Positions 45,657 through 63,287 of a DNA stretch of 64,000 nucleotides are shown here, piece by piece (positions within the stretch are counted from its first letter, which is position 1; each line of letters opens with the position of its first letter). This DNA is from an uncultured Ignavibacteria bacterium (lineage in GTDB: Bacteria; Zixibacteria; MSB-5A5; CAIYYT01). A model generated the notes under the pieces. That model did no database searches and was not told the origin of the DNA. It saw only the letters and a list, made by a program, of their open reading frames with translations. The stretch covers positions 1 through 64,000 of the forward strand of contig CAZIBI010000002.1 of assembly GCA_964537215.1 (NCBI GenBank), read 5' to 3'. The position numbers and the translations under genes were made by a program.

Positions 45657-46067
45657 TCAGCAGCGAATGACGGTAGCTGCAGTGAAGACGCTGAAGTCGG
45701 CGTCCAACGCGAATTCGGGGGGATCTAGCAGCTCTTGTATAAACATGTGAAAGCAGACAGCAGGTGCGTTAGAGCCGTGTCCGAGATTCTGAAGGGAATT
45801 TAATTGTCCCCGATCATTGATAGTTTGAGCCCAGCGGCCGAATTCAGGCAATTGGAAATCTGTACACGAGACGCATTCACTCGGAATCTCCTGACCGGCG
45901 ATGGAGACCTCCGAAACTGCGCTAATAGCAATCGAACAGCACTCTGCGCCAAAACTTTCAAATTCGGAATGTCCCGATTCACCAACACACAGAACTGTTG
46001 TGCCTTGAATCGGAATTACGAGAACTTGGAGTAACAGCAAAGCGCCGCTCAACACTTTTGTTCGCAT
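45657..46067 (-). CDS. Hypothetical secreted Cys-containing protein
   Basis: Internal ATG with a clear signal peptide (MRTKVLSGALLLLQVLVIP). Eight Cys residues. No known domain recognised. Confidence 0.35.
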   Translation of the reverse strand: MRTKVLSGALLLLQVLVIPIQGTTVLCVGESGHSEFESFGAECCSIAISAVSEVSIAGQEIPSECVSCTDFQLPEFGRWAQTINDRGQLNSLQNLGHGSNAPAVCFHMFIQELLDPPEFALDADFSVFTAATVIRC

Positions 46068-46762
46068 ATTGGTAAACATGCCAAAATATACGTAACTATT
46101 CAAATTCATCCAAGACCAAAAATCTCCATGCTTTTCCTTCCAAGAGATAGACTTCAAAATCGTCAACCTGAAGGTAGACATAATGCATTTAACACTCGTT
46201 AGCCTTATTGGTTCCACGGAATCCGTGCTCAACCTGACCTTCGGGTTTTGACCAACTTGCATGCATCCGCAAGTTTAATCGTCGAAAGAACTCGACAATA
46301 TCTGGACACAAGGGGATAGAAGTTGGGAACGGTTTGGTCAATGGCAGGTATGTCAACGGTGTTTTCTTGACGGTTGTTGGGAACCTTGTCCGACCGTCGA
46401 GCGCGTATGATCACACGCCGGGCGCATTAGAGAGAGATTAGCATATTCCTTGGCTCTCAAGTTCGAGGCAAATCTGGAAATAGGTTTTCGTGGCACAGCT
46501 CAGAGAGGAGGCAGCTTCTAGTTCCTCTGGATATTGGATTTGCTTGGCTTTCTTGGTTGCACTTTCGGCGTACCGATTACTTGAAATGAACACCAGCATT
46601 AGTTTGCTACGACTCCATCTGCGACAGTCTGACTCGCCTAAGAGCGGCACTGTACTATCATAGGGATCGCTAGCTGTCTTGAACCAATTATTCAGCAGCT
46701 TAGACAGGTGCTTTACGAAGCCTTGTTCCGAGTTTGTGATACTGATGTACTCGAGCAAAATT

Positions 46763-46782
46763 GTAGTCACAATTTGGTCACA
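46763..46782 (+). repeat. Solo copy of the repeat tail motif GTAGTCACAATTTGGTCACA
   Basis: 19/20 match to the tail of repeats 1–3. Lies 124 bp upstream of copy 3 with no associated tRNA-like head. Confidence 0.6.
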
Positions 46783-46905
46783 ACACCAGACTAATCCTAA
46801 GTCAAGTGACAATTTATCAATCACCTAAGTAACTTGCCGCACGGCTTCAAAAGCCCCTTGCGTCCTCTCGAAGATAAGTTCAAATTGTTGAACAGCTAAC
46901 CAATT

Positions 46906-46943
46906 GCCGGAGTGGCGAAATTGGTAGACGCAAGGGACTCAAA
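46906..46943 (+). pseudogene. tRNA-Leu(UAA)-like 5' half, copy 3 (anticodon loop CTCAAAA)
   Basis: As copy 2 with one substitution in the anticodon loop. Confidence 0.6.
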
Positions 46944-47083
46944 AAGCGAGACTGACGAAAACGCAAACGAATAAACCGCAACGTATTATGTTGTGCGACA
47001 ATCGGGTGGCCAGTCTTATGTTAAGCATTACTTTGTATCACTTTTGACGATTTGGGACTAGTTATAGTCACAAATTGGTCACA
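46906..47083 (+). repeat. 178-bp direct repeat, copy 3
   Basis: GCCGGAGTGGCGAAATTGGTAGACGCAAGGGACTCAAAAAGCGAGACTGACGAAAAC ... TTTTGACGATTTGGGACTAGTTATAGTCACAAATTGGTCACA. Confidence 0.85.
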
Positions 47084-48177: not shown

Positions 48178-49458
48178 CTATGCGCTCATCCACCGCTGAA
48201 TGTGGTGCTCGACCTGCGCACGTTCCTGACTGTAGCGGAGACGTGACTGTGCAACGATCTTACGTCGATTTGACGGTTGCAATATGTCGGGTGGTGGCAA
48301 CGTCTCGGCGCTGAACGGTTCAGACGTCTTCCCATTTATGGACAAGCGGAGGTAGACGTTATATTGCGGCAAGCTCTGCAGATCGACAGCGTGAAAAGTT
48401 GGATAGAATTCGCGGGCGAAAATCTCTGCATCTTCCGAACCGCAGTTGAAGGCAATCAAGGTTCCCACGTTCCCAAGAATGGCTGAAGCCAGTTGCTTTG
48501 GTAGCTGGGCAAGAAACTGATTTGCCATGCCGGCGATAACTAGCCGGTACTTCCGCGCCTCAGAGAGTATCGCAGGGAAGTCTTCCGTCGCATACGAATG
48601 TGTCTCGTCGATGTACACAAAATAGTCCGTGCGTAAGTCTTCGGCAACCGCCGCGCGCCGCAGTGCAGCCAAGTACAACTGCGTAATCATCATCGACCCC
48701 AGCAGCGCGGAGTTTTCTTCACCAATCTTCCCTTTGGCAAGATTCAGCAGGAGTATCTTTCCGGCATCCAAGACGTCCGACAGGTCAAACTTCGTCTTTG
48801 TCTGCCCGACAATGTTCCGCACGACCGGGTCAGTGAGGAACTGCCCGACCTTGTTCAGAATCGGTGAGATGGTCTCGGTGCGGAAGACTTTGGGGTACTG
48901 TTCAAATTCCACCGTCCAGAAGTGCCGAAGCATCGGGTCCTGCAAGCCGGACACAATCCGCGCCCGGAAGTGGTCGTCGACGAGGAGCCGGTTCACACCG
49001 AGCAGGGTACTGCCGCGCGCTTCCAGCAGCGCCAGAATCGCGTTGCGTAAGACGTACTCCAGCCTGGGACCCCATGAGTCCGTCCAAATCTTCTTGAAGA
49101 CCTGCACGACACCGGAAGCGACGAGATGCCGCTGTCTCGCGTCGGGATTGGACAGGACATTGAAGGCAATCGGGTACTCGCTGTCGGCGGGGTTGAAGTA
49201 GATGGTTTCGTTAATGCGCCTGGCCGGTATGTGGTCGAGGACGTGTTCGACGAGATCGCCGTGCGGGTCAATAACCGCGACACCGCGTCCAGCTTGAATG
49301 TCCTGTACGATGCAATTGAGCAGCAGCGTACTCTTGCCGGCGCCCGTTTTGCCCAGCAGGAACGTATGCCGCCGCCGGTCTTCCGGCTTGATGCCGAAGC
49401 GTCGCCGGTTACTTCGGTAATTCGTCTGCCCGAGAATCAAAAGCCCATTGTTCTGCAT
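48178..49458 (-). CDS. P-loop ATPase of the TraD/VirD4-coupling-protein or HerA/AAA_10 type
   Basis: Walker A in a typical context (HTFLLGKTGAGKSTLLLN...AVIDPHGDL), Walker B (FVYIDETH). 426 aa, in a phage/ICE-like neighbourhood. Confidence 0.55.
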   Translation of the reverse strand: MQNNGLLILGQTNYRSNRRRFGIKPEDRRRHTFLLGKTGAGKSTLLLNCIVQDIQAGRGVAVIDPHGDLVEHVLDHIPARRINETIYFNPADSEYPIAFNVLSNPDARQRHLVASGVVQVFKKIWTDSWGPRLEYVLRNAILALLEARGSTLLGVNRLLVDDHFRARIVSGLQDPMLRHFWTVEFEQYPKVFRTETISPILNKVGQFLTDPVVRNIVGQTKTKFDLSDVLDAGKILLLNLAKGKIGEENSALLGSMMITQLYLAALRRAAVAEDLRTDYFVYIDETHSYATEDFPAILSEARKYRLVIAGMANQFLAQLPKQLASAILGNVGTLIAFNCGSEDAEIFAREFYPTFHAVDLQSLPQYNVYLRLSINGKTSEPFSAETLPPPDILQPSNRRKIVAQSRLRYSQERAQVEHHIQRWMSA

Positions 49459-52252: not shown

Positions 52253-53467
52253 CTAGCTCAGTCTTGGGCCGCAGCAGAGGTTGAACTGCTGAAGGCTTCC
52301 GCACGGGCAGAGTCCGCTCTTAGAGAAGTGACTCACGCAGGCTAGAAACTCTGGTATTTCATCTGTGCGCATATTGAGACAGGTAGGCCAGGCGGAAAAC
52401 TTCTTGCGGTCACCCGGATTAATGCATTTGCGCCAGAGCGACGCTGTTGCGAGATCAGGCAGAGCGGAGAGTATTTCGTTAACGTTGTTCAGCTCCGGAG
52501 ACGACTTCGGAGTTTTGGACTTCAGCATCCAATTCGCAATTCGACTGAGATCGTCCTTGAGGTCCTTACCTGATAGGAATGTTTGATCAGCCGTCATGCA
52601 GCATGGCGCCGTCAAAGCATGGAACTTGTCGTTTGAGCAAAAGACCATACAGAAGGGCAAGTAGAATAAGTATTCTTTATCGACTTGGTTAGTGGCTCGG
52701 GTACCCACCAAGTTGCGAGCTAAGCCGAGGCGGAACGACAATTCGACTTTCGCGCAGTGGTAGGCAAACGGTGCGAATTCCCCAATTGTTCCTAGCCCTG
52801 AGAGTCTGTACCGTTCGACGATTGGTGTCCGATCAGGAGGATCAACTAGCAAGACCGATAGCATGAGAGATAGTGCGTCTGACTGATCATCCAGGTTGAG
52901 AAACAGCTTCTCAACACGCTGGACGAGCTCTTGAAAGCTCTTTGCGTCCGACAGTTGTTCAGCAGCTTGCGAGTAGAGTGTCCTCACATATTCGAGATCA
53001 AAGGTGCGCGAGTGTGCCCGCCACTCATCGGCAAATGCGATGTCGCTGGGGCCGAAATCGCCGCGCTGCCACCGCATTACATCTTGCTCTTGACGCGACT
53101 CCTCAAACACAATCCCAGAGCGACCGTCCTTGAGCGCGTGCCGATGTGCCCGATCGAGGACAATTTGATAGTTCGTCGGAACATACTCACCTGCTAGTTC
53201 GAGCGCGATTAGCTCGTGATGTAGCTGATTGTAGAAGCCTCGGGACTGAATCGCTTTCTTGGCAAGCCGCATGGCTTCACTCGGCTGCACAAGGCCTCCC
53301 GTATTCAACTTGGTGAGATCGCCGATTATTTCGAAGAAGAGAATGGGTGTCAGGTTTACAGTGTACAGCCGTGCGAGAAGTGAAATCTCGTGCTCATCTA
53401 GCGCCTGAAGCACCGACTTGTCGATGATGAGCACTGGCGCACTTAGTCCGTCATGTACTACCTTCAT
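52253..53467 (-). CDS. Hypothetical protein with C-terminal SEC-C metal-binding motif
   Basis: 404 aa. C-terminus CPCGSLQQFNLCCGP matches the SEC-C motif. The N-terminus (VLIIDKSVLQALDE...) is unassigned. Overlaps the upstream gene by 4 nt. Confidence 0.5.
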   Translation of the reverse strand: MKVVHDGLSAPVLIIDKSVLQALDEHEISLLARLYTVNLTPILFFEIIGDLTKLNTGGLVQPSEAMRLAKKAIQSRGFYNQLHHELIALELAGEYVPTNYQIVLDRAHRHALKDGRSGIVFEESRQEQDVMRWQRGDFGPSDIAFADEWRAHSRTFDLEYVRTLYSQAAEQLSDAKSFQELVQRVEKLFLNLDDQSDALSLMLSVLLVDPPDRTPIVERYRLSGLGTIGEFAPFAYHCAKVELSFRLGLARNLVGTRATNQVDKEYLFYLPFCMVFCSNDKFHALTAPCCMTADQTFLSGKDLKDDLSRIANWMLKSKTPKSSPELNNVNEILSALPDLATASLWRKCINPGDRKKFSAWPTCLNMRTDEIPEFLACVSHFSKSGLCPCGSLQQFNLCCGPRLS

Positions 53468-54450
53468 GATTCAGTCGAATCATCTGGCCCACGGAGCAAC
53501 TTTGGATTGCGATAGTCAATGGCATCGTGATCTTCGGCGGGGTGGGGTGCGAACTGACTCGGTACAACGCCTTGATCAAAGAGGTCTAACGAGTGTTTTA
53601 CGATTCTCATTGCAGCTTCGTCAGGAATCTCCTTCGGAATTGTGCCTTCGGCCGCGGCACGTTGTAACTCTCTCAGTGCAGCAACGCCTTCGCTGAGGAC
53701 TTTGTTCACCCGTTCTGCTCGTTCAATGTCGCGGTAGTGCCAGCGGAAGAGCGCGTTCAGTACACACTCTACGGTCTTCGCCAGTCCCTCTCCAAGTTTG
53801 AATTCAATTCGAATCGGCGATCCCGTTTCAATGCGGAGAATTTCCACTGGATGAAGGTTCTCCTGAGGTCTGAGGGAAGCAAGCTCTCCAGCGAGTTCGC
53901 TTACCAATTCCAGAATCTTAGAGAGTTGTTGAGCTTGAGTAAGTCCAATTCGGAATTGCAGAACGTCAATCGAAACTACGGTCGGAATATCTTCAGGATC
54001 GTCATCCTGGAGTCCGAGTAAGCTCTGCAAGCTTTCCTCCACCGCTGTCATTCGTAGCCAGTTCTCGTAAACCTCCCCCCGAAACTCGCTTGCCTGATCT
54101 CGAGTCTGGTGATTGATGTGATGCACCGCCACAGCAGGTACAATTGTACTACTCAATAATGCATTGAAGTTCAACGCTTCAAGAATTTCTCTAGCTGCCG
54201 GATTCTGCGAGATGGCGTCAATGCCACGAACCAGTTCGGCATGCAACAGCATGACCGTCGGATTGGGCAGAACATTTCCGTTGTGGTTTGGATAGTCCCG
54301 GTTTTCAAAAAACAACTCTCGTGCTGTCGGAAATCGCTCTCGAATCCATTTGATGCCAGCAACAATGTCCTTGGGATACAAAACCCCTCCTGCTTTAGAT
54401 GTAGTCAGCTCAACTAATCTCGCGCTTCTAGCGCTTGCGTGAAACGGCAC
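53464..54450 (-). CDS. Hypothetical protein, upstream partner of the SEC-C protein
   Basis: No recognisable motifs. The ORF track start is GTG; a TTG at about 54381 with AGGAGG SD may be the true start. Confidence 0.4.
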   Translation of the reverse strand: MPFHASARSARLVELTTSKAGGVLYPKDIVAGIKWIRERFPTARELFFENRDYPNHNGNVLPNPTVMLLHAELVRGIDAISQNPAAREILEALNFNALLSSTIVPAVAVHHINHQTRDQASEFRGEVYENWLRMTAVEESLQSLLGLQDDDPEDIPTVVSIDVLQFRIGLTQAQQLSKILELVSELAGELASLRPQENLHPVEILRIETGSPIRIEFKLGEGLAKTVECVLNALFRWHYRDIERAERVNKVLSEGVAALRELQRAAAEGTIPKEIPDEAAMRIVKHSLDLFDQGVVPSQFAPHPAEDHDAIDYRNPKLLRGPDDSTES

Positions 54451-54690
54451 CTGCGCAAGACAGTCACCGGACTATTTAAGCGAAATGTTTGCATAAGATC
54501 AAGGGCTTCGAGGTGATCAACATGCCGATTCCGACAAAACAGTGTGTCGGCTCCCGGGAGAGTCGATCAAGAATTATGGACTCTTTTCACTTGCCCATAT
54601 CACTTACTTACTTTACCTTTCGGTTCGAAATAGGTAGCATAAAATGGGTGTTCTAATGACTGCGCGTGCACTACTTAGCACGAAAACATC

Positions 54691-56922
54691 ATGCAACTAA
54701 GCGATAACGAAAAACGGGATATAATCAAGTATATTGAGGCCGGAAAGCCTCTGCCCGACAAGTATCGCTTCCTGCTTTTCGAGGAAAAGCAGGAAGTCGA
54801 GCTCGTTTGGAATGGCAAAACCAGCGAAGTCACAAACGTTGTATTGCCATTTCAGATTATCGAGCAAGTAGACGAACCACGGAGTGAAAAGGACGTAAAG
54901 CTCCAACTTGGCCTGTTTGATCTGGATTCGCGGGGACGGCAGCTCAAAGGGTGGACAAACAAACTCATTTGGGGAGACAACAAACTGATCCTCTCCAGTC
55001 TCAAGAACGGTCCGATGCGCCAAGAGATTGAAGAGCAGGGCGGCATCAAGCTCATCTACATTGACCCACCGTTCGATGTCGGGGCAGACTTCTCGATGGA
55101 CATTGAGATCGGCGAGGACACACTTACCAAGCGTCCGAATGTCCTTGAAGAACTTGCCTATCGGGATACTTGGGGCAAGGGTGCGGATTCATTTATCGCC
55201 ATGATCTATGAGCGCCTCGTGCTGATGCGAGACTTGCTGGCAGAAGATGGAAGCATTTATGTGCATTGTGACTGGAGGCTAATCGCATACATGCGGCTCG
55301 TCCTCGACGAAGTATTTTCGACAGATCGCTTCCAAAACATTATTACGTGGAGACGTGGTCCGCAAAAATCGCACGGCCTTGGATATGGTCACAATGCAGA
55401 CTACATCATCTATTTCACCAAATCGAATCACTTCATTTGGAATAAGCCTGTTGGCGACCTTTCGGAAGAGTATCTCAAGTCATTCAAACAGGACGCAAAG
55501 GGGAAGTATGTCACGACTCCGCTGCATAGCGGACGACCGGCGCTTCACGTACCGGCTTGGAGGGGTGCCAAGCCGCCACAAGGACGCGGCTGGGCTTATA
55601 AGATTGAAACACTTGAACAATTCGAACGCGATGGCCTGATCGAGTGGAGCAAGACAGGGACTCCGAGACTCAAGCGTTACCTCGACGACATTGAGGGTGC
55701 CGCAGTTCAAGAAATCTGGTCCGATATCAAACCCCTGCTCGCAAAGAGTGGTGAGCACTTAGCGTATCCGACTCAAAAACCTGAGGAGTTACTCGACCGC
55801 ATTATTGAAGCCTCATCTAATGAAAACGATGTTATCGCCGATTTCTTCTGTGGTTCCGGTACTACGCTAGCAGTCGCGGAAAGGCTCGGGCGTAAGTGGA
55901 TAGGTACGGATTTAGGAAAATTCGCAATTCATACTTCAAGAAAGCGAATGATCGCGGTTCAGCGGCAGCGAAAGACTGCCGGCGAATCATTCCGTGCATT
56001 CGAAATCCTCAACCTTGGGAAATACGAACGACAGCACTATATCGGGGTCAACCCGAATCTTCGGGATCAAGAGAAACAGAGGCAAATCGCGAAGAAGGAA
56101 AAGGACTTCATCGCGTTGATTCTTTCAGCGTACCGGGCCGAAGCCGTCGATGGATTCAAGACTTTCCATGGCAAAAAATCATCTCGCCTTGTCGCAATCG
56201 GTCCAATCAACTTGCCCGTATCGCGCCTCTTCGCCGAGGCAGTAATTGCCGAGTGCCTGGAGAAGAAAATCACCAAGGTAGATATTCTCGCTTTCGAGTT
56301 TGAAATGGGGTTGTTTCCCAACATTCAAGAAGAGGCTAAGCGAAAGGGCGTCGATCTTGCACTAAAGTACATACCGCGCGAAGTCTTCGACAAGCGCGCC
56401 ATCGAAAAGAACCAAGTTGTATTCCATGACGTTAGCTTCATCGAATTGAAGCCTATCGTAAAGAAGGGTCTCGTCTCCGTCGAACTTACCGATTTTTCGG
56501 TATTCTACAACCAAGACTCGCTAAAGGACGTCGAGGAGAATCTCAAGGCCGGTGGAAAAAAACTGATCGTCCAGAACGGCCAAATCATTAAGGTCGCGAA
56601 AGATAAGAATGAGGTCGTCACTCGTGAAGTGCTCACGAAGAAATGGACTGATTGGATAGACTATTGGGCCGTGGACTTCGCCTTCGAGAGTAAGAAAGAA
56701 ACGATCCGCGTAAAGAGCGAAAAGGCCGAAGGGTACGACGAAGTCTGGACCGGCAGCTATGTCTTTGAGAACGAGTGGCAGTCGTTCCGAACGAAGAAAG
56801 AACGTAGTCTCGAACTGACCAGTGTCGCTCGCGAACTCCCTAAGGGGAAGCACAAGATCGCCGTCAAAGTCGTTGACATCTTCGGCAACGACACGATGAA
56901 GGTCATCGAGGTCACTGTCTAG
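54691..56922 (+). CDS. mod: Type III restriction-modification methyltransferase (Mod), beta-class N6A/N4C amino-MTase
   Basis: Motif IV DPPF (LIYIDPPFDVG) precedes motif I FxGxG (DFFCGSGTT). 743 aa. 12 nt upstream of res. Confidence 0.85.
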   Translation: MQLSDNEKRDIIKYIEAGKPLPDKYRFLLFEEKQEVELVWNGKTSEVTNVVLPFQIIEQVDEPRSEKDVKLQLGLFDLDSRGRQLKGWTNKLIWGDNKLILSSLKNGPMRQEIEEQGGIKLIYIDPPFDVGADFSMDIEIGEDTLTKRPNVLEELAYRDTWGKGADSFIAMIYERLVLMRDLLAEDGSIYVHCDWRLIAYMRLVLDEVFSTDRFQNIITWRRGPQKSHGLGYGHNADYIIYFTKSNHFIWNKPVGDLSEEYLKSFKQDAKGKYVTTPLHSGRPALHVPAWRGAKPPQGRGWAYKIETLEQFERDGLIEWSKTGTPRLKRYLDDIEGAAVQEIWSDIKPLLAKSGEHLAYPTQKPEELLDRIIEASSNENDVIADFFCGSGTTLAVAERLGRKWIGTDLGKFAIHTSRKRMIAVQRQRKTAGESFRAFEILNLGKYERQHYIGVNPNLRDQEKQRQIAKKEKDFIALILSAYRAEAVDGFKTFHGKKSSRLVAIGPINLPVSRLFAEAVIAECLEKKITKVDILAFEFEMGLFPNIQEEAKRKGVDLALKYIPREVFDKRAIEKNQVVFHDVSFIELKPIVKKGLVSVELTDFSVFYNQDSLKDVEENLKAGGKKLIVQNGQIIKVAKDKNEVVTREVLTKKWTDWIDYWAVDFAFESKKETIRVKSEKAEGYDEVWTGSYVFENEWQSFRTKKERSLELTSVARELPKGKHKIAVKVVDIFGNDTMKVIEVTV

Positions 56923-56934
56923 GGGAAAACACGT

Positions 56935-59631
56935 ATGGCGCTACATCCCAATTTCCCGAAATCCCCACACGCAATCCTTGATCCCGCGATCCGCTGGTTC
57001 CCAGCGGACGAGTCCTTGCGCGAACAGGGATACGACAAATTGCTCCCGCCTCTCGTCGCCGAACTGCGCAAGCAGGTGCGAGACTGGCGGCTTTCTGGGT
57101 ATCAAGGCGCAAGTGAAACCAGCCGAACTCTTCTGAACTGGTGGTTCTTGCGGGAACACCCTGTGTCAAGCGCGAAGGGTGAAACCTTTCTGTTCCAATA
57201 CTACTTCGCCCAACGGGAAGCTGTTGAGACGATCATTTGGCTCTATGAAGTAGCGCAGGCACGAGACAAGTACGACCTCATCCGGCATGATAGCTCTGGT
57301 GCTGTTTCGGCGGGCATGTTCGACGAGACTTGGACTCGCTACGTTGTTAAGATGGCGACGGGTTCGGGCAAGACGAAAGTCTTAAGTCTGATCCTGACCT
57401 GGTGCTATTTCCATAAGCTCTACGAAACAGGCTCCGAACTAGCTCGCAATTTCCTCGTCATCGCGCCGAACATCATCGTCTTAGATCGCCTACGTGCGGA
57501 CTTCGACGGCTTGAAGATCTTCTTCGAGGATCCGGTGCTCCCGGACAACGGCGTCGACGGCCACAATTGGCGCGACGACTTCCAACTGACATTGCACATC
57601 CAAGACGAGATCGGCACGATTCGCAAGACCGGCAACATCTTCTTGACGAACATTCACCGCGTCTACCAAGGCGCGATCGAAGCATCCAGCTTCGATGACG
57701 AAGATACTGCCGACTACTTTCTTGGCAAGCGCCCTGTGGGCGCGACCAATCAGTCGAAACTCGACCTTGGCGACATTGTTCGCAACATCGACGAGCTCGT
57801 CATCTTAAATGACGAAGCCCACCACATCCATGACCCGCGTTTAGCATGGTTCAAAGCAATCGAAGACATCCACAACCGTCTGCTCATGAAAGGCGACAAG
57901 CTCAGCCTTCAGGTCGACGTCACAGCGACGCCGAAGCACAACAACGGCTCGATCTTCGTGCAGACGGTGAGCGACTATCCGCTTGTCGAAGCGATCCACC
58001 AGGACGTCGTGAAGCACCCGGTCCTGCCAGATTCAGCGAGCCGGGCGAAGCTGCAGGAGCACAAAAGCTCCAGCTTCACCGAGAAGTATAAGGACTACAT
58101 CCACCTCGGCTACCTGGAGTGGAAGAAAGCATACGATGAGCACTTGAAGCTCCAGAAGAAGGCAGTGCTCTTCCTCATGACCGATGACACCAAGAATTGC
58201 GACGAAGTCGCGAAGTACCTTGAATCTACCTACCAAGAACTCCAGGGCGCCGTCCTGGTCATTCATACGAAGGACAATGGCGAAATCTCGGAAAGCGTCA
58301 CCGGCAAGAAAGAAGAAGAGCTCAAGTTACTCCGCGAGGCGGCGAACTCCATCGACCACTTGGGCAACCCGTACAAGGCCATCGTGTCCGTCCTGATGCT
58401 CAAGGAAGGCTGGGACGTGCGGAACGTCACCACGATCGTCGGCTTACGCGCGTACAGCGCCAAGAGCAATATCCTTCCGGAACAGACGCTCGGCCGCGGC
58501 CTGCGGCGCATGTACCACGATCCCGACCTTCCGGAACTCGTCAGCGTCGTCGGTACGGATGCCTTCATGGATTTCGTGGAATCGATCAAGAGCGAAGGCG
58601 TCGAGCTCGAACGACGGCAAATGGGTGAAGGCTCAGGGCCGAAGACGCCGATCGTTGTTGAAGTCGACAAAGAGAATCGGAAGAAGAATATTGAACAGCT
58701 CGATATCGACATCCCCGTTCTAACTCCGCGCATTTATCGAGAGTACAAGAATCTCTCAGAGCTTGCCGTTGATCGGTTCGGCATCAAGAAGATCCCGCTC
58801 AAAGAATTTACCGAGGAACAGAAGAGGCAGATCGTCTTCCGTGATATCACGAGCGGCGAGGTAACCCATACGACAGAACTCGATACCGACTTTGTCCCAA
58901 ACTACCAGAGCGTCATCGGCTACTTCACGCAAGTCATCATGAAAGACTTGCGCCTCGTCAGCGGGTACGACGTCCTCTACGGCAAAGTGAAGGAATTCAT
59001 TCAGCAACACTTGTTCGTCAAGAGAATTGAGCTGGACAACTTAAATTCGCTCCGGAACCTCTCCGAAATCGAAGCGTCACGCACGGTCGTCGAGACGTTC
59101 AAGAAGGAGATCAACTCTCTCACAGTCTTGGATCGAGGCGAAGCTGAAATCCGTGACTACATCAAAATTAGTAAGAGCCGCCCCTTCGTTGTGAAGGAGC
59201 AGGGGTACATTATTCCCAAGAAGAGTGTGTTCAACAAGATTGTTGGGGACAGCCACTTCGAACTTGAGTTCGCCAATTTCCTCGAGGGTTGCGACGACAT
59301 CATTTCCTACGCAAAGAATTATTTCGCCGTTCACTTTCGGATAGACTACAGGAACGCCGACGGGAGCATTTCCGACTACTACCCGGACTTCATTGTCAAG
59401 GTCGCGCCGAAGCAGTATTTCGTTGTTGAGACAAAGGGCAGAGAAGATTTGGACGATGTATTGAAAATCGAACGTCTTCAACAATGGTGTGACGACGTGA
59501 ATGCGACGCAGCGAGAGATCAAGTACCAGATGCTGTATGTGAAGCAAGAGCAATGGGAGTCTTCTCCTAACCGTCCAAGGTCGTTTAAGAATGCAATTCA
59601 ATTGTTCCAACAAAAGGCACGTTTAGTATGA
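56935..59631 (+). CDS. res: Type III restriction endonuclease Res subunit (SF2 helicase + C-terminal PD-(D/E)XK)
   Basis: Helicase motif I (MATGSGKTKV), motif II DEAH (LNDEAHH), C-terminal nuclease-like D...VETKG. Confidence 0.85.
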   Translation: MALHPNFPKSPHAILDPAIRWFPADESLREQGYDKLLPPLVAELRKQVRDWRLSGYQGASETSRTLLNWWFLREHPVSSAKGETFLFQYYFAQREAVETIIWLYEVAQARDKYDLIRHDSSGAVSAGMFDETWTRYVVKMATGSGKTKVLSLILTWCYFHKLYETGSELARNFLVIAPNIIVLDRLRADFDGLKIFFEDPVLPDNGVDGHNWRDDFQLTLHIQDEIGTIRKTGNIFLTNIHRVYQGAIEASSFDDEDTADYFLGKRPVGATNQSKLDLGDIVRNIDELVILNDEAHHIHDPRLAWFKAIEDIHNRLLMKGDKLSLQVDVTATPKHNNGSIFVQTVSDYPLVEAIHQDVVKHPVLPDSASRAKLQEHKSSSFTEKYKDYIHLGYLEWKKAYDEHLKLQKKAVLFLMTDDTKNCDEVAKYLESTYQELQGAVLVIHTKDNGEISESVTGKKEEELKLLREAANSIDHLGNPYKAIVSVLMLKEGWDVRNVTTIVGLRAYSAKSNILPEQTLGRGLRRMYHDPDLPELVSVVGTDAFMDFVESIKSEGVELERRQMGEGSGPKTPIVVEVDKENRKKNIEQLDIDIPVLTPRIYREYKNLSELAVDRFGIKKIPLKEFTEEQKRQIVFRDITSGEVTHTTELDTDFVPNYQSVIGYFTQVIMKDLRLVSGYDVLYGKVKEFIQQHLFVKRIELDNLNSLRNLSEIEASRTVVETFKKEINSLTVLDRGEAEIRDYIKISKSRPFVVKEQGYIIPKKSVFNKIVGDSHFELEFANFLEGCDDIISYAKNYFAVHFRIDYRNADGSISDYYPDFIVKVAPKQYFVVETKGREDLDDVLKIERLQQWCDDVNATQREIKYQMLYVKQEQWESSPNRPRSFKNAIQLFQQKARLV

Positions 59632-62309
59632 GCACTACTGGACTCAGTTTTAAGAGAGTCGACCTGCATGTGCATTCTACAGCCTCAGCTGACTACAGAA
59701 ATAAGGCAGCCACTCCGAAACAAATTGTAGAAGCTGCACTAGCAAAGGGTTTGAGTGCAATTGCTGTAACTGATCATCAGACGGGCAACGGTATTGACGA
59801 AATTATTGCAGCTGCAGTAGGTACGGAACTAGCTGTTTTCCCAGGCGTAGAGATTACTGCGGCAGGAGGAAAAAACGGCATTCATGTTCTCTGCATTTTT
59901 AACAAAGATAAGAACACTACTCACGTTAATCAGTTCCTAAACACTCTAAAGATCTACGACCGGGAGGGAAAAGTTACCCCGTGTACTGAGTCAACGGTTG
60001 GACAGATTGCGGAACAGCTTGATATATATGATAGCGATGCAATCATGATACTCGCGCACTGTCATTCCTCTAAGGGCGTTTTAGGCGACATTACCGGCGT
60101 CCAGCGATCCGCAATTTTTGAGAAGAAGAGCCGTTGCCTCATCGGGGCCGAAACAAGTGAAGGTAACTTCACTGATCCCAAAAGGATTGAAGAACGAACT
60201 CGAGTTATCGACATCCTCGACGGGTCCGATGCCAACTACCACAACGCAAAGTTAGGAGTGATTCAGAGTTCAGATGCGCATGAGCCAGCCGAGATTGGCT
60301 CAGCGTTTTCTTGGTTTAAAGTTGATGAACCAATCACTATAGAAGACTTACGCCAATGCCTAATTGACCGCGAAACGCGGATACGTCAACCTTATGAATT
60401 CAAGCCAGGTCTATTTCCTTCTATTCGATCGATTCGAATTGAGGGTGGCTTTCTTGACGGGGCGCACCTGAACTTCAATAATGGCTTAAACAGCATACTG
60501 GGAGGCAAGGGCACGGGAAAATCGCTTGTAGTTGAGTTGTTGCGTTTCGGCCTGGATCAAGGCCCCGCGGAGCCGCCTCTCGCGAACGATCACGAACAGA
60601 AACTTCTCAATTGTCTGAAGACATACGGAAAGGTAGGCATCACAATTTCAGATGAAACTGGGAAAGAGTATTTGATCACACGAGAGTACAAACCCAATGA
60701 TGGCAATCCGACCACGGTTACCGACATTCAAGACAAGACACCGAAGACTTTTTCCATTCGGGACGTCTTCCCGTGCATTTTCCTAAGCCAGAATGAAGCA
60801 ATCCAAATTGCTCAAGATGTGACTGGACGTGCGCAACGCCAATTCATTGATCGGTTTTTTGACTTCAACCGAATCCAGCAAGAAATTCTCAGAACAAATC
60901 GAGAACTCCAGCAGGCTGACAAAAATTTTGCTGAGTGTGTGCGAGCTAAATTCGAGTCTGAGCTCGTCGACAAGCAGTTGGCTGGAATTCGCGAAGAGAT
61001 TGAGAAGATTGATCGACAAGTAAAGAACGAAGCGTTTGACGAGTACGCAAAGAAAGAGCGAGTTGGAAGAGCTATTGACACACAGCACAGTTTCATCAAA
61101 CAACTTAGTCGGCACCTGTCGGAATTCAAAGGCACCTTAACTGACTTGCATGTACCTCTAGACGATGACGACACTACAGCCAAGGATCCGATCGTTCGAA
61201 GGTCGAGAGATGTTTCGCAAGAGTCTCTTCGAAAACTGATAGAACAACTGAATGCAAGTAGCGCCGCTCTCGCACAAGCAGAACAAGGTATCAGCAAGGA
61301 GAACATTGAATACCGCAACTCCGTCGCCCCCGTCAAACAACGTTACGAAGAGCTTGTCAAACAAGCCGGTGGAAATCAGGTAACTCTGAACGAGCGAAGA
61401 AAGAAGCTAATCCTTCAGAGGACGCAATTAGACAGTAAGATGAGCGAGCTTCAGAATAAACATGCACAGCTCAGGACGATTGCTGACAACAGAAAAGCCC
61501 ATCTTGCCCAGTTGGACGCATTGCACACGGAATACTCGACTTTGCGACGCCAGCGTTGCGAGCATTTTTCGAGCAACTCCAACAGAGCACTGGATGTGAG
61601 TATTATGGAAGCAAAGGACACCGCCGACTTCCAAGCAAACCTAATGCGATTGAAAAAAGGGTCCTGGCTTCGCGAAGATGAGATTAGTGCAATCACAAAA
61701 GGAATAATTCCAAAGGATTTTGTTCGCGCAATTCTAGGCTATGCATGGAAACATCGTAACGCTCCCGAGGCCGTCAAAGAGGTTGCTGACAAGACTGGAC
61801 TTGCGGTAGATAGAATCGAGAAGCTCTTCAGTCACTTTTTGGACGAGTGCACATACGAGGAGCTGCTTGCGCTGGAGTATACTTCTACTCCTGACGACGT
61901 ACCCCAAATCAAGTATCGCGTCGATGGTCAGTACAAACTCTTGAGTGAACTTTCAGTGGGCCAGAAATCCGTCGCGCTTCTAATCATGGCATTGAGCGAC
62001 GGGCGAAGTCCCATAATCATCGATCAGCCGGAAGACTCTCTCGACCTTCGCTCAATTTGGGACGACGTTTGCACTAAAGTTCGAACCACGAAGGAGCAGA
62101 GGCAGTTCATCTTCTCTACTCACAATTCGTCTGTTGCCATCGCATCCGATTCAGACTGTTTTTCTATTCTCGTAGCAGATGGATCCCACGGCAAAGTAGC
62201 GTATTCAGGCTCGATTAATGCTCCTGATATTCGAAAGGAGGTCCTACTCCATCTAGAAGGCGGAAAGGACACCTACAATCACAAGAGGCGAAAGTACAAT
62301 ATTGCATAG
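59628..62309 (+). CDS. PHP-domain phosphoesterase fused to SMC/RecN-like ABC ATPase with coiled coil (Ppl-like)
   Basis: N-terminal PHP (VDLHVHSTASADY, HxH...H...E...H...D/H). Walker A (GGKGTGKS), long coiled-coil region, ABC signature and Walker B (LSVGQKSVALL...IIIDQPEDSLD), H-loop (STHN). ATGA overlap with the res stop. Confidence 0.7.
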   Translation: MSTTGLSFKRVDLHVHSTASADYRNKAATPKQIVEAALAKGLSAIAVTDHQTGNGIDEIIAAAVGTELAVFPGVEITAAGGKNGIHVLCIFNKDKNTTHVNQFLNTLKIYDREGKVTPCTESTVGQIAEQLDIYDSDAIMILAHCHSSKGVLGDITGVQRSAIFEKKSRCLIGAETSEGNFTDPKRIEERTRVIDILDGSDANYHNAKLGVIQSSDAHEPAEIGSAFSWFKVDEPITIEDLRQCLIDRETRIRQPYEFKPGLFPSIRSIRIEGGFLDGAHLNFNNGLNSILGGKGTGKSLVVELLRFGLDQGPAEPPLANDHEQKLLNCLKTYGKVGITISDETGKEYLITREYKPNDGNPTTVTDIQDKTPKTFSIRDVFPCIFLSQNEAIQIAQDVTGRAQRQFIDRFFDFNRIQQEILRTNRELQQADKNFAECVRAKFESELVDKQLAGIREEIEKIDRQVKNEAFDEYAKKERVGRAIDTQHSFIKQLSRHLSEFKGTLTDLHVPLDDDDTTAKDPIVRRSRDVSQESLRKLIEQLNASSAALAQAEQGISKENIEYRNSVAPVKQRYEELVKQAGGNQVTLNERRKKLILQRTQLDSKMSELQNKHAQLRTIADNRKAHLAQLDALHTEYSTLRRQRCEHFSSNSNRALDVSIMEAKDTADFQANLMRLKKGSWLREDEISAITKGIIPKDFVRAILGYAWKHRNAPEAVKEVADKTGLAVDRIEKLFSHFLDECTYEELLALEYTSTPDDVPQIKYRVDGQYKLLSELSVGQKSVALLIMALSDGRSPIIIDQPEDSLDLRSIWDDVCTKVRTTKEQRQFIFSTHNSSVAIASDSDCFSILVADGSHGKVAYSGSINAPDIRKEVLLHLEGGKDTYNHKRRKYNIA

Positions 62310-62390: not shown

Positions 62391-63287
62391 TTGGTAGACC
62401 TTACAGATCTAACTTATGTAATCAAAGCGGACTCACTGCGCGTTGGCGGTTCGAACAAACCAATATTTGTCCACAAACGTCATCGTTGGGTGCTCCCAAT
62501 CATTCACTTTACACAGACGTACGGCATTCTTAACGAACCATGCACTATTGTCAACATTGACGGCCATAGAGACTGGGCATTCTACGGTGGGGTTACAAAT
62601 GTCGAAATGTTTGATGATATTCGGCAATACGGAGTGACTCACGAAAGGCTGAAGGCTTATCTAGCCGATGATAGAGACGACGATGCGCAGTGGCTCGTGT
62701 CAGCGGTCGACTTCAATTTAGTCGATAGCGTAATCCTTATTGGCGGGCAGCTTGAAGCAGAAATGCGAACTGTACCATGGGATGAACGGAAAGTGATTGG
62801 AGACATTGAGGACTCAGTTCCATTCGTCGCTCAAGACGTCCGGGGTGTCTTTCACGAAGTGCATCCGCTTCACACTTACACTGTTGCGGAAACAGAGGGG
62901 GGATATGAACATAGCGTACTGCTAAAGTCAATGGCGGGTGTTGAGCAACTCAGATGGTGGAAATGTTACGAAATTGTTTCGGAAATCGCAGCAGACCAAC
63001 TGTTTCTTACAGTCGACCTAGATTTTTTTGCTGCAGATCCGTTCGGAGAGACTCGGCTGTGGGACCTTCGCGACCTGGAGGTGTTTCTCGCTCTTAATAT
63101 TAGCCCGCCGAGCTTTGGAAAGGTCGTTACCACTGGAGATCTGATCAGATTGATTGCCAAGAAGTCTGTAGCCATTTCCGTCGCCACAGAAGTCGATCAT
63201 TGCGGAGGAATTGAGAATGCGAAAATCGCATATCAATGGGCGAGGGAATACTTTGGCATGGACGTCTCGGGCGCACTGTTTATTTAA
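62391..63287 (+). CDS. Hypothetical protein (Asp/His-rich motifs IVNIDGHRD, TVDLDFF)
   Basis: 298 aa. TTG start with AGGAAAAGAG upstream. No confident family assignment. Confidence 0.4.
   Translation: MVDLTDLTYVIKADSLRVGGSNKPIFVHKRHRWVLPIIHFTQTYGILNEPCTIVNIDGHRDWAFYGGVTNVEMFDDIRQYGVTHERLKAYLADDRDDDAQWLVSAVDFNLVDSVILIGGQLEAEMRTVPWDERKVIGDIEDSVPFVAQDVRGVFHEVHPLHTYTVAETEGGYEHSVLLKSMAGVEQLRWWKCYEIVSEIAADQLFLTVDLDFFAADPFGETRLWDLRDLEVFLALNISPPSFGKVVTTGDLIRLIAKKSVAISVATEVDHCGGIENAKIAYQWAREYFGMDVSGALFI

What the first reader, a model, noticed from the sequence alone, without database searches (positions are those of the whole stretch)
52253..54450. Uncharacterised overlapping two-gene operon (328-aa + 404-aa SEC-C-motif protein) embedded in the defence/mobile module
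Two minus-strand genes overlap by 4 nt. They sit between a phage-type recombination module (Sak-like SSAP + Cas4-like exonuclease) and the type III R-M/PHP-ATPase operon.
- Neither protein has recognisable enzymatic motifs except a C-terminal SEC-C zinc-binding motif (CPCGS...CCG) on the 404-aa protein, whose N-terminal segment (VLIIDKSVLQALDE...LTPILFFEII) is vaguely PIN-like.
- Location, operon structure and lack of annotation make this a candidate novel anti-phage or abortive-infection pair.
Basis: inference. Interest (0 to 1): 0.6.

Follow-up and report, generated by a model that had tools for sequence, protein, structure and literature searches.

The report
Split PIN-like nuclease with lineage-specific partner
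The 404-aa gene encodes an intact member of a previously undescribed, horizontally mobile family of PIN-type nucleases that normally occurs as a single gene, so its pairing with the 305-aa upstream gene is a local arrangement and not a conserved two-gene defence system.

Summary
Two minus-strand genes overlap by 4 nt (ATGA) and both are under purifying selection (omega about 0.2). Gene A is more likely 305 aa (TTG at 54381, GGAGG upstream) than 328 aa.

B's family occurs in 125 species across many phyla, has lower GC than its flanks, and has no Pfam, NCBIfam, PADLOC or PHROG model. In more than 80 independent loci it is a solo gene with no A-type gene, no conserved neighbour, no cryptic small ORF and no upstream repeats. 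A minority of loci are clear defence islands.

A belongs to a separate rare family with no known domain or fold match, and that family is also solo elsewhere. The "novel pair" reading is therefore only partly supported. B is best read as a stand-alone conflict-associated nuclease, with A as a lineage-specific, probably co-translated add-on.

The parts
53464..54381 (-). Gene A, 305 aa (TTG start). Member of a rare uncharacterised family with an N-terminal helical region, a central beta-alpha-beta-beta-alpha (ferredoxin-like) module and C-terminal helices. It lacks the K/R-rich tail that most relatives carry.
54382..54450 (-). Possible 23-codon N-terminal extension of A if the GTG at 54450 is used. 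Probably 5' UTR instead.
   Evidence: Longest-ORF start. The stretch is not conserved in L001, while the GGAGGGG-TT-TTG context is conserved.
54386..54390 (-). GGAGG ribosome-binding site 4 nt upstream of A's TTG start.
   Evidence: Sequence read. Conserved in L001.
53464..53467 (-). ATGA overlap: B's start codon overlaps A's stop codon. No obvious separate RBS for B, so translational coupling is inferred.
   Evidence: Identical junction in L001.
52253..53467 (-). Gene B, 404 aa: PIN-like nuclease with a large insert and a Zn-knuckle tail.
53303..53443 (-). B residues 9-55: N-terminal half of the PIN core (strand-helix-strand-helix) with D16 (motif IIDKS) and E46 (FFEIIGDL).
   Evidence: Secondary structure. 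Conservation: D16 in 86/89 and E46 in 86/89.
52703..53302 (-). B residues 56-255: mostly helical insert, about 200 aa, between the second and third catalytic acidic residues. Contains the family-invariant W149-R150.
52508..52702 (-). B residues 256-320: C-terminal half of the PIN core with D263 and the invariant block Y-L-F-Y-L-P-F-C-x-x-F-x-S278-x-D280-K-x-H283.
   Evidence: D263 88/89, S278 89/89, D280 89/89.
52265..52312 (-). B residues 386-401: SEC-C-like Cys4 knuckle (CPCGSLQQFNLCCG).
   Evidence: Pfam PF02810 at E=0.031, 14.6 bits, below the cut-off. 5 of 27 aligned members match, best 1.3e-7. Tail present only in window, L001, L010, L011 and L098 out of 89.
54451..54690 (.). Divergent intergenic region between A and the Type III mod gene. 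Presumably holds both promoters. It is the least conserved stretch of the syntenic block.
   Evidence: 52% identity to L001 against about 90% for the block. No consensus sigma-70 site found there.

Best explanation
Gene B encodes a catalytically intact member of a previously undescribed family within the PIN-like nuclease superfamily. The PIN core is assembled from the N-terminal ~55 and C-terminal ~65 residues of the domain. Its acidic tetrad is D16-E46-D263-D280, and a ~200-residue helical insert interrupts the core. By analogy with the helical arch or insert of FEN and PIN nucleases, the insert probably caps the active site and sets substrate choice. The family is a stand-alone, horizontally transferred accessory gene that lands in variable regions, often but not always beside restriction-modification or other defence genes. 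The window's sub-clade has replaced the usual C-terminal tail with a SEC-C-type zinc knuckle. In SecA and its relatives this element docks onto SecB and ribosomes, so I infer that this B may be tethered to the translation apparatus and cut RNA there in a Mg2+/Mn2+-dependent manner. Gene A belongs to a different, rare, uncharacterised family that is also solo elsewhere. In this lineage it was placed directly upstream of B, with a strong RBS of its own and an ATGA overlap. The two are therefore almost certainly co-transcribed and probably translationally coupled, and A may modulate B. The pairing is a lineage-specific juxtaposition, not a conserved two-gene system. SHOWN: the genes, the overlap, purifying selection, the PIN fold at the level of a predicted structure, conserved acidic residues, solo status of both families, sporadic taxonomic spread, low GC, and defence-island context in a minority of loci. 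INFERRED: nuclease activity, RNA substrate, ribosome tethering, a conflict or defence role, and any A-B interaction.
Against: The PIN assignment rests on a predicted structure only. No sequence method detects it: no PIN-family Pfam match at E<=1 apart from one member at 0.2 to Mut7-C, hhalign against a PIN_3 protein gives probability 0.2, and full and insert-spliced profiles find no PIN in PDB sequences. I could not inspect coordinates to confirm that the four acidic residues cluster in space. Many B loci are flanked by housekeeping genes such as MnmA, isocitrate dehydrogenase and RNase II family proteins. No formal defence-enrichment statistic against a genomic background was computed. The window's SEC-C motif is below Pfam threshold. 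The tight overlap, conserved over dS of about 0.3 to 0.85, is compatible with a real functional A-B link, which would make 'juxtaposition' an understatement.
Confidence: 0.55

Rival explanations
1. One reading: A and B form a dedicated two-component toxin-antitoxin or abortive-infection system. A is the upstream antitoxin or sensor that holds the PIN toxin B in check until infection, as in VapBC.
For: The gene order (partner first, PIN second) and the 4-nt ATGA overlap mimic VapBC operons and are conserved in L001. B lacks an obvious RBS of its own. A evolves faster than B, 74% versus 88% amino-acid identity, as antitoxins and sensors often do. The pair lies in a defence and mobile island.
Against: B is solo in 84 other loci with no A-type gene, no conserved small ORF and no repeat array beside it, so B does not generally need a linked antidote. 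A-family members are solo or next to unrelated genes. A is 305 aa with no recognisable DNA-binding antitoxin domain. Neither protein hits a PADLOC model. The only second example is the same island in a close relative.
Confidence: 0.15
2. B is an accessory module of helicase-nuclease restriction systems of the Type III Res type. It works together with the neighbouring Res/Mod genes, not on its own.
For: ResIII-type helicase genes lie within 2.5 kb of B in five independent loci: window/L001, L037, L061, L083 and L098. In L098, L083 and L061 they are on the same strand with gaps of 51, 242 and 28 nt. The SEC-C sub-clade members window and L098 both adjoin Type III Mod+Res genes.
Against: This applies to only about 6% of loci. 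The helicases belong to different architectures (Res+TnsA-like, HTH-ResIII, PLD-helicase-DUF3427). In the window, A-B is transcribed divergently from mod-res. Most B loci have no helicase nearby.
Confidence: 0.1
3. B is an ordinary RNA-processing or housekeeping-type PIN nuclease, and A an unrelated hypothetical gene. Their island location is incidental and neither has a role in conflict.
Against: The family is found in only 125 of about 185,000 species genomes, scattered across phyla. It has lower GC than its flanks and lies next to recombinases, integrases and defence genes in many loci. That is the pattern of an accessory, horizontally moving gene, not a core function.
Confidence: 0.12

Closest known systems
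VapC-type PIN-domain toxins (Pfam PIN clan; e.g. M. tuberculosis VapC21 5sv2, Shigella VapC 6sd6)
   Different: B is 404 aa against about 135 aa. A roughly 200-aa helical insert splits the core. There is no detectable sequence similarity to any Pfam PIN family. There is no small DNA-binding antitoxin. Homologues are solo genes, whereas VapC is almost always paired with VapB.
PIN-like nucleases with inserted specificity elements (FEN/XRN 'helical arch'; Mut7-C with its C-terminal zinc ribbon), as classified by Matelska et al. 2017 (PMC5499597)
   Same: A PIN-like core elaborated by an inserted helical element after the early strands and by a Cys4 zinc module at the C-terminus. One family member gave a marginal Mut7-C hit (E = 0.2).
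   Different: The insert is far larger and has no structural match. The zinc element is a terminal SEC-C knuckle present only in a sub-clade, not an embedded ribbon. There is no profile-level relationship to FEN, NYN, PRORP or Mut7-C families.
SEC-C / SecA metal-binding-domain tails (PF02810; SecA, YecA, YchJ)
   Same: A C-terminal C-x-C-x-S...C-(C/H) knuckle at the very end of the protein. Clade relatives P0003-P0005 pass the Pfam threshold.
   Different: It is attached to a nuclease, not to a translocase or chaperone. The window copy is degenerate (lacks the G-K-K-[FY]-K core) and scores below threshold. Binding to SecB or ribosomes is untested.
Known single-gene or small anti-phage systems catalogued in PADLOC v2 (including candidate PDC families)
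   Same: Island context next to a Type III R-M and Ppl. Sporadic, HGT-like distribution. A nuclease effector.
   Different: No PADLOC model matches A or B. No experimental phenotype is available.

Membership tests
PIN domain-like superfamily (for B) | Rossmann-like alpha/beta/alpha sandwich with a central parallel sheet (PMC5499597) | tested here: met
PIN domain-like superfamily (for B) | Three to four conserved acidic residues at the C-terminal ends of core strands, forming the metal site | tested here: met
   D16, E46, D263 and D280 are present in 85 of 89 members. Order, spacing and the S-x-D motif match canonical PINs.
PIN domain-like superfamily (for B) | Sequence-profile relationship to an established PIN-like family | tested here: not met
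   No PIN-family Pfam hit at E<=1, apart from one member at 0.2 to Mut7-C. hhalign against a PIN_3 protein gives probability 0.2. Full and insert-spliced profiles find no PIN in PDB sequences. B would therefore be a new family placed in the superfamily by fold.
PIN domain-like superfamily (for B) | Divalent-metal-dependent nuclease activity | not testable with these tools
   Needs biochemistry.
VapBC-type type II toxin-antitoxin module (for the A-B pair) | Small upstream antitoxin with a DNA-binding domain (AbrB, RHH, HTH or PhD type) | tested here: not met
   A is 305 aa with no Pfam, NCBIfam or PADLOC domain and no fold match to such domains.
VapBC-type type II toxin-antitoxin module (for the A-B pair) | Toxin and antitoxin genes linked across homologues | tested here: not met
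   None of 84 independent B loci carries an A-type gene. No conserved small ORF flanks B. A-family loci lack B.
VapBC-type type II toxin-antitoxin module (for the A-B pair) | Bicistronic operon, partner first, with overlapping or abutting genes | tested here: met
   ATGA overlap, conserved in L001.
SEC-C motif, PF02810 (B C-terminus) | Match to the Pfam model at or above the gathering score, with the C-x-C...C-(C/H) ligands | tested here: inconclusive
   The ligand pattern CPCGS...CC is present. The score is 14.6 bits against a 20.4 cut-off (E = 0.031). Clade relatives pass at 1.3e-7. Only 5 of 89 family members have such a tail.
Catalogued anti-phage defence systems (PADLOC v2.0.0) | Match of either protein to a known or candidate defence-protein model | tested here: not met
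   No hits for A or B or for the 37 A-family members at E<=0.1 beyond noise.
Defence-island gene (guilt by association) | Homologues enriched next to known defence genes compared with the genomic background | tested here: inconclusive
   Clear defence neighbours occur in the window, L037, L061, L083 and L098 and in a further set of immediate neighbours, but many loci have housekeeping neighbours. No background-normalised score could be computed.

The most novel reading that the evidence does not exclude
The B family is a new, widespread, single-gene anti-phage or abortive-infection effector: a PIN RNase gated by its own 200-residue insert. In the SEC-C sub-clade it is docked on the ribosome by the zinc knuckle. 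In this lineage, A (a ferredoxin/RRM-like protein of a second unknown family) has been recruited as a dedicated sensor or regulator, creating a new two-component variant.
Probability: 0.2. Interest if true: 0.65.

Novelty: new variant of a known kind. Interest (0 to 1): 0.4.

Why it matters
If correct, this defines a new family in the PIN-like nuclease superfamily. It is present in at least 125 species, from CPR bacteria to Asgard-related archaea, and no current domain, annotation or defence database captures it. It has an unusual split-core architecture whose insert may be an autoregulatory or substrate-selecting module. It also gives a second orphan family (A) a first functional lead. For defence-system discovery it is a useful caution: a tight, overlapping operon inside a defence island can be a lineage-specific juxtaposition of two solo genes and not a conserved system.

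Tried and rejected
1. Sequence-level identification of B. Pfam, NCBIfam, PADLOC and PHROGs gave nothing. A profile against PDB sequences gave nothing, including after splicing out the insert. hhalign against a PIN_3 neighbour gave probability 0.2.
3. Genome and metagenome scans with the A family. Alignments A2 and A3 were too diverse for the pattern scan. A5 gave only 5 metagenome loci and no viral loci. Three context look-ups landed on contigs under 3 kb.
4. afdb50 fold search: library unavailable.
5. Cryptic antitoxin hypotheses for solo B genes. No conserved small ORFs and no tandem-repeat RNA arrays were found, so both were rejected.
6. Phage or plasmid carriage. No phage-genome hit for A or B. 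There was one truncated plasmid remnant and 4 hits among 2.9 million viral contigs.
7. Rfam, promoter/terminator and repeat scans around the pair found nothing above background.
8. Source naming gave no names or accessions for A or B. The window's own contig could not be retrieved, so the organism is unidentified.

Full report
**1. Observation**

At the junction, B's ATG overlaps A's TGA (ATGA), and the junction is identical in the only close relative, L001.

A's real start is more likely the TTG at 54381:
- A GGAGG lies 4 nt upstream.
- Gene callers made a 305-aa product in the database and in L001/L002.
- The 23-codon extension lies in sequence that is not conserved in L001, whereas the GGAGGGGTT-TTG context is conserved.

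Both ORFs are genuine genes. Window versus L001 gives dN/dS = 0.19 for A and 0.22 for B, compared with 0.07 for the neighbouring Cas4-like gene. Neither protein hits any Pfam, NCBIfam, PADLOC or PHROG model.

The SEC-C motif has the right Cys pattern (CPCGS...CC) but scores below Pfam's threshold (14.6 bits, E = 0.031). Three more distant clade members pass.

**2. What B is**

An alignment of 27 family members (A1) shows conservation concentrated at the two ends of a roughly 320-residue region:
- N-terminal motifs: G-P-x-x-[LI]-x-D-K-S-x-L-Q and P-x-x-x-x-E-x-x-x-D-L.
- C-terminal motif: D-x-x-Y-L-F-Y-L-P-F-C-x-x-F-x-S-x-D-K-x-H.

After hmmalign of 89 family proteins from genomes and viral contigs, D16, E46, D263 and D280 are all present in 85. 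The four exceptions are truncated or gapped. S278, Y266, Y269, P271, F272 and F276 are invariant. The order D...E...D...S-x-D and the spacings (30 and 17 residues) match the canonical PIN tetrad (my knowledge of VapC/FitB, and PMC5499597).

No sequence method links B to known PIN families. B is therefore a new family assigned to the superfamily by predicted fold and motif logic, not by profile homology.

**3. Distribution and context of the B family**

A pattern scan of one genome per species found 125 confirmed loci. They span Acidobacteriota, Patescibacteria/CPR, Planctomycetota, Nitrospirota, Proteobacteria (including *Xanthomonas hortorum* and *Aurantiacibacter flavus*), Chloroflexota and archaea (Promethearchaeota, *Methanobacterium*). 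B genes average 4.4 GC points below their flanks: 61 of 75 loci are lower, Wilcoxon p = 7e-9.

I called ORFs in all loci and searched them with an HMM of the A family.
- No locus other than the window and L001/L002 has an A-type gene within +-8 kb. The same holds for the 4 viral-contig loci.
- Clustering of 730 neighbours found no partner family. The largest clusters were response regulators (8 loci), serine recombinases (6) and Res-like helicases (4), then integrases, Dcm methylases and transposases (3 each).
- The 149 nearest flanking ORFs hit 127 different Pfam families, none in more than 3 members.
- No conserved small ORF lies within 450 nt on either side, and there are no consistent upstream tandem repeats.

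B is therefore a stand-alone gene family.

Several independent loci are clear defence islands:
- L098: GmrSD-like gene, Type III Mod, Type III Res, then B 51 nt downstream.
- L083: AAA_21 ATPase, HTH-ResIII helicase, B, patatin phospholipase.
- L061: HNH, B, PLD-helicase-DUF3427.
- L037: a Res protein closely related to the window's.

Immediate neighbours elsewhere hit PADLOC models for Type IV and Type IIG restriction enzymes, IetS, HamB, PbeA and mad2/3. Many other loci are flanked by housekeeping genes. B is absent from 50,697 phage genomes. It has one truncated remnant among 72,556 plasmids and 4 hits in 2.9 million viral contigs.

The SEC-C tail occurs only in the window, L001, L010, L011 and L098. 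Most members instead carry a different C-terminal motif (G-x-W-x-Q-x-P-x-D-L).

**4. What A is**

The word-indexed search found only A itself and the L001 copy. The exhaustive representative search found about 40 proteins of 300-370 aa, aligned nearly end to end at 18-26% identity (E from 6e-11 to 7e-4).

The alignment (A2) shows a conserved N-terminal W, the motifs N-P-x-A-x-x-V-L-x-A-F, K-I-E-S-G-S-x-x-R-I-D-x-K-G, E-A-W-x-x-x-R-H-x-R and G-A-L-P-x-E-I-P, and in most members a K/R-rich C-terminal tail. The window's copy lacks that tail.

Where context could be read, A-family genes are solo or next to unrelated genes:
- L008: directly after a DUF4145 gene.
- L009: alone, between a hypothetical gene and enolase.
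- L096/L095: among MscS, CarboxypepD_reg and cupin genes.

A nucleic-acid-binding role (RRM-like module plus basic tail in relatives) is a low-confidence inference.

**5. The pair and its island**

The only other A-B pair is L001/L002, from a related organism. It has the same order, Mod - A - B - DUF932 - Cas4-like, at about 90% nucleotide identity overall.

Within that block A is a divergence hot spot. Its dS is 0.85, against 0.27 for B and 0.26 for the Cas4-like gene, and its N-terminal third has dS 1.6. The A-mod intergenic region (52% identity) and the central part of Mod (55342-55893, 52-62%) are similarly divergent. This suggests recombinational replacement of A and its upstream region, and it argues against long co-evolution of A and B as one unit.

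The window region from about 46 kb to 64 kb has the following gene content:
- an ImmA/IrrE-like peptidase;
- a TraD/VirD4/HerA-like ATPase;
- a Cas4-like exonuclease;
- DUF932;
- A-B;
- Type III Mod and Res;
- Ppl (PADLOC 1.4e-42, full length).

**6. Mechanism (best estimate)**

B is a metal-dependent PIN nuclease. Its insert probably governs access to the active site, by analogy with the helical arch or insert of FEN and PIN nucleases (PMC5499597). In the window's clade the SEC-C knuckle may dock it onto ribosomes or a SecB-like partner, as the SecA metal-binding domain does (bioRxiv 10.1101/613315). That would fit the RNA targets (tRNA, rRNA) of many VapC enzymes (my knowledge).

Its sporadic, low-GC, island-prone distribution points to a conflict role (defence, addiction or exclusion), exercised as a single gene. 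A is co-transcribed and probably translationally coupled here and may modulate B, but comparative genomics gives no support for an obligate pair. All functional steps are inferred.

**7. Novelty and verdict**

B represents an undescribed family and architecture within a well-known superfamily, and A an undescribed orphan family. The proposed "novel two-gene defence system" is not supported as a conserved system. I rate this a new variant of a known kind, of moderate interest (0.4).

The most novel reading still open is a new single-gene PIN defence effector with a recruited regulator in this lineage. I give it probability of about 0.2.

Noticed in passing
window 53464-54690 versus L001: Gene A and its upstream intergenic region are far more diverged from L001 than the flanking genes. 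A has dS 0.85 (N-terminal third 1.6) against about 0.27 for B and the Cas4-like gene, and the intergenic region is 52% identical. This suggests recombinational replacement with a breakpoint near the A/B junction.
   Followed up: partly
window 55342-55893: The central part of the Type III mod gene is only 52-62% identical to L001, with indels, while the rest of the gene is about 90% identical. This is the pattern expected for a swapped target-recognition domain, meaning a different methylation specificity.
   Followed up: no
window 59628-62309: The PHP-ATPase matches the PADLOC Ppl model end to end (E = 1.4e-42). Its start overlaps the stop of the Type III res gene by 4 nt (59628-59631), so Ppl appears to be fused into the R-M operon.
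   Followed up: no
Pfam gives only DUF3072 at 0.008 (below cut-off), PHROGs gives an unknown-function family at 9.5e-6, and there is no PDB sequence match.
   Followed up: partly
window 48178-49458: This TraD/VirD4/HerA-like P-loop ATPase has its best matches to PADLOC mad8 (4.5e-14) and phrog_5156 (3e-55, unknown function). It could be a conjugative coupling protein remnant or a defence ATPase.
   Followed up: no
window 62391-63287: A 298-aa ORF downstream of Ppl has no hit in PADLOC, NCBIfam or PHROGs. It is another unannotated island gene.
   Followed up: no
L083 2496-11224: A compact defence island in a Candidatus Eisenbacteria MAG: AAA_21 ATPase, a 292-aa unknown, an HTH-ResIII helicase, the B homologue, a patatin phospholipase and a 297-aa unknown, all on one strand.
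   Followed up: partly
L061 7059-12410: An HNH_2 endonuclease lies 6 nt upstream of the B homologue, and a 1037-aa PLD-helicase-DUF3427 protein lies 28 nt downstream. This may be an operon that includes B.
   Followed up: partly
L008 9251-10996: An A-family gene (P0059) lies 19 nt downstream of a DUF4145 gene on the same strand. A second A-family paralogue (P0034) occurs elsewhere in the same assembly (GCA_004196315.1).
   Followed up: no
Alignment A2 (A family), C-termini: Most A-family proteins end in a 20-60-residue K/R-rich tail after a conserved P-K-L-L motif. The window and L001 copies lack it and end right after that motif, at the overlap with B.
   Followed up: no
L015 and L087: B-family genes occur in archaeal MAGs (Promethearchaeota, Methanobacterium), which indicates inter-domain transfer of this family. 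The Methanobacterium copy is a longer ORF of 636 aa.
   Followed up: no
window 46000-47000: GC drops to 45% just after the RND efflux operon that ends at about 45.6 kb. This probably marks the left boundary of the island. No tRNA gene was found in the window, and no integrase domain appeared among the ORFs I scanned between 45.6 and 63.3 kb.
   Followed up: no
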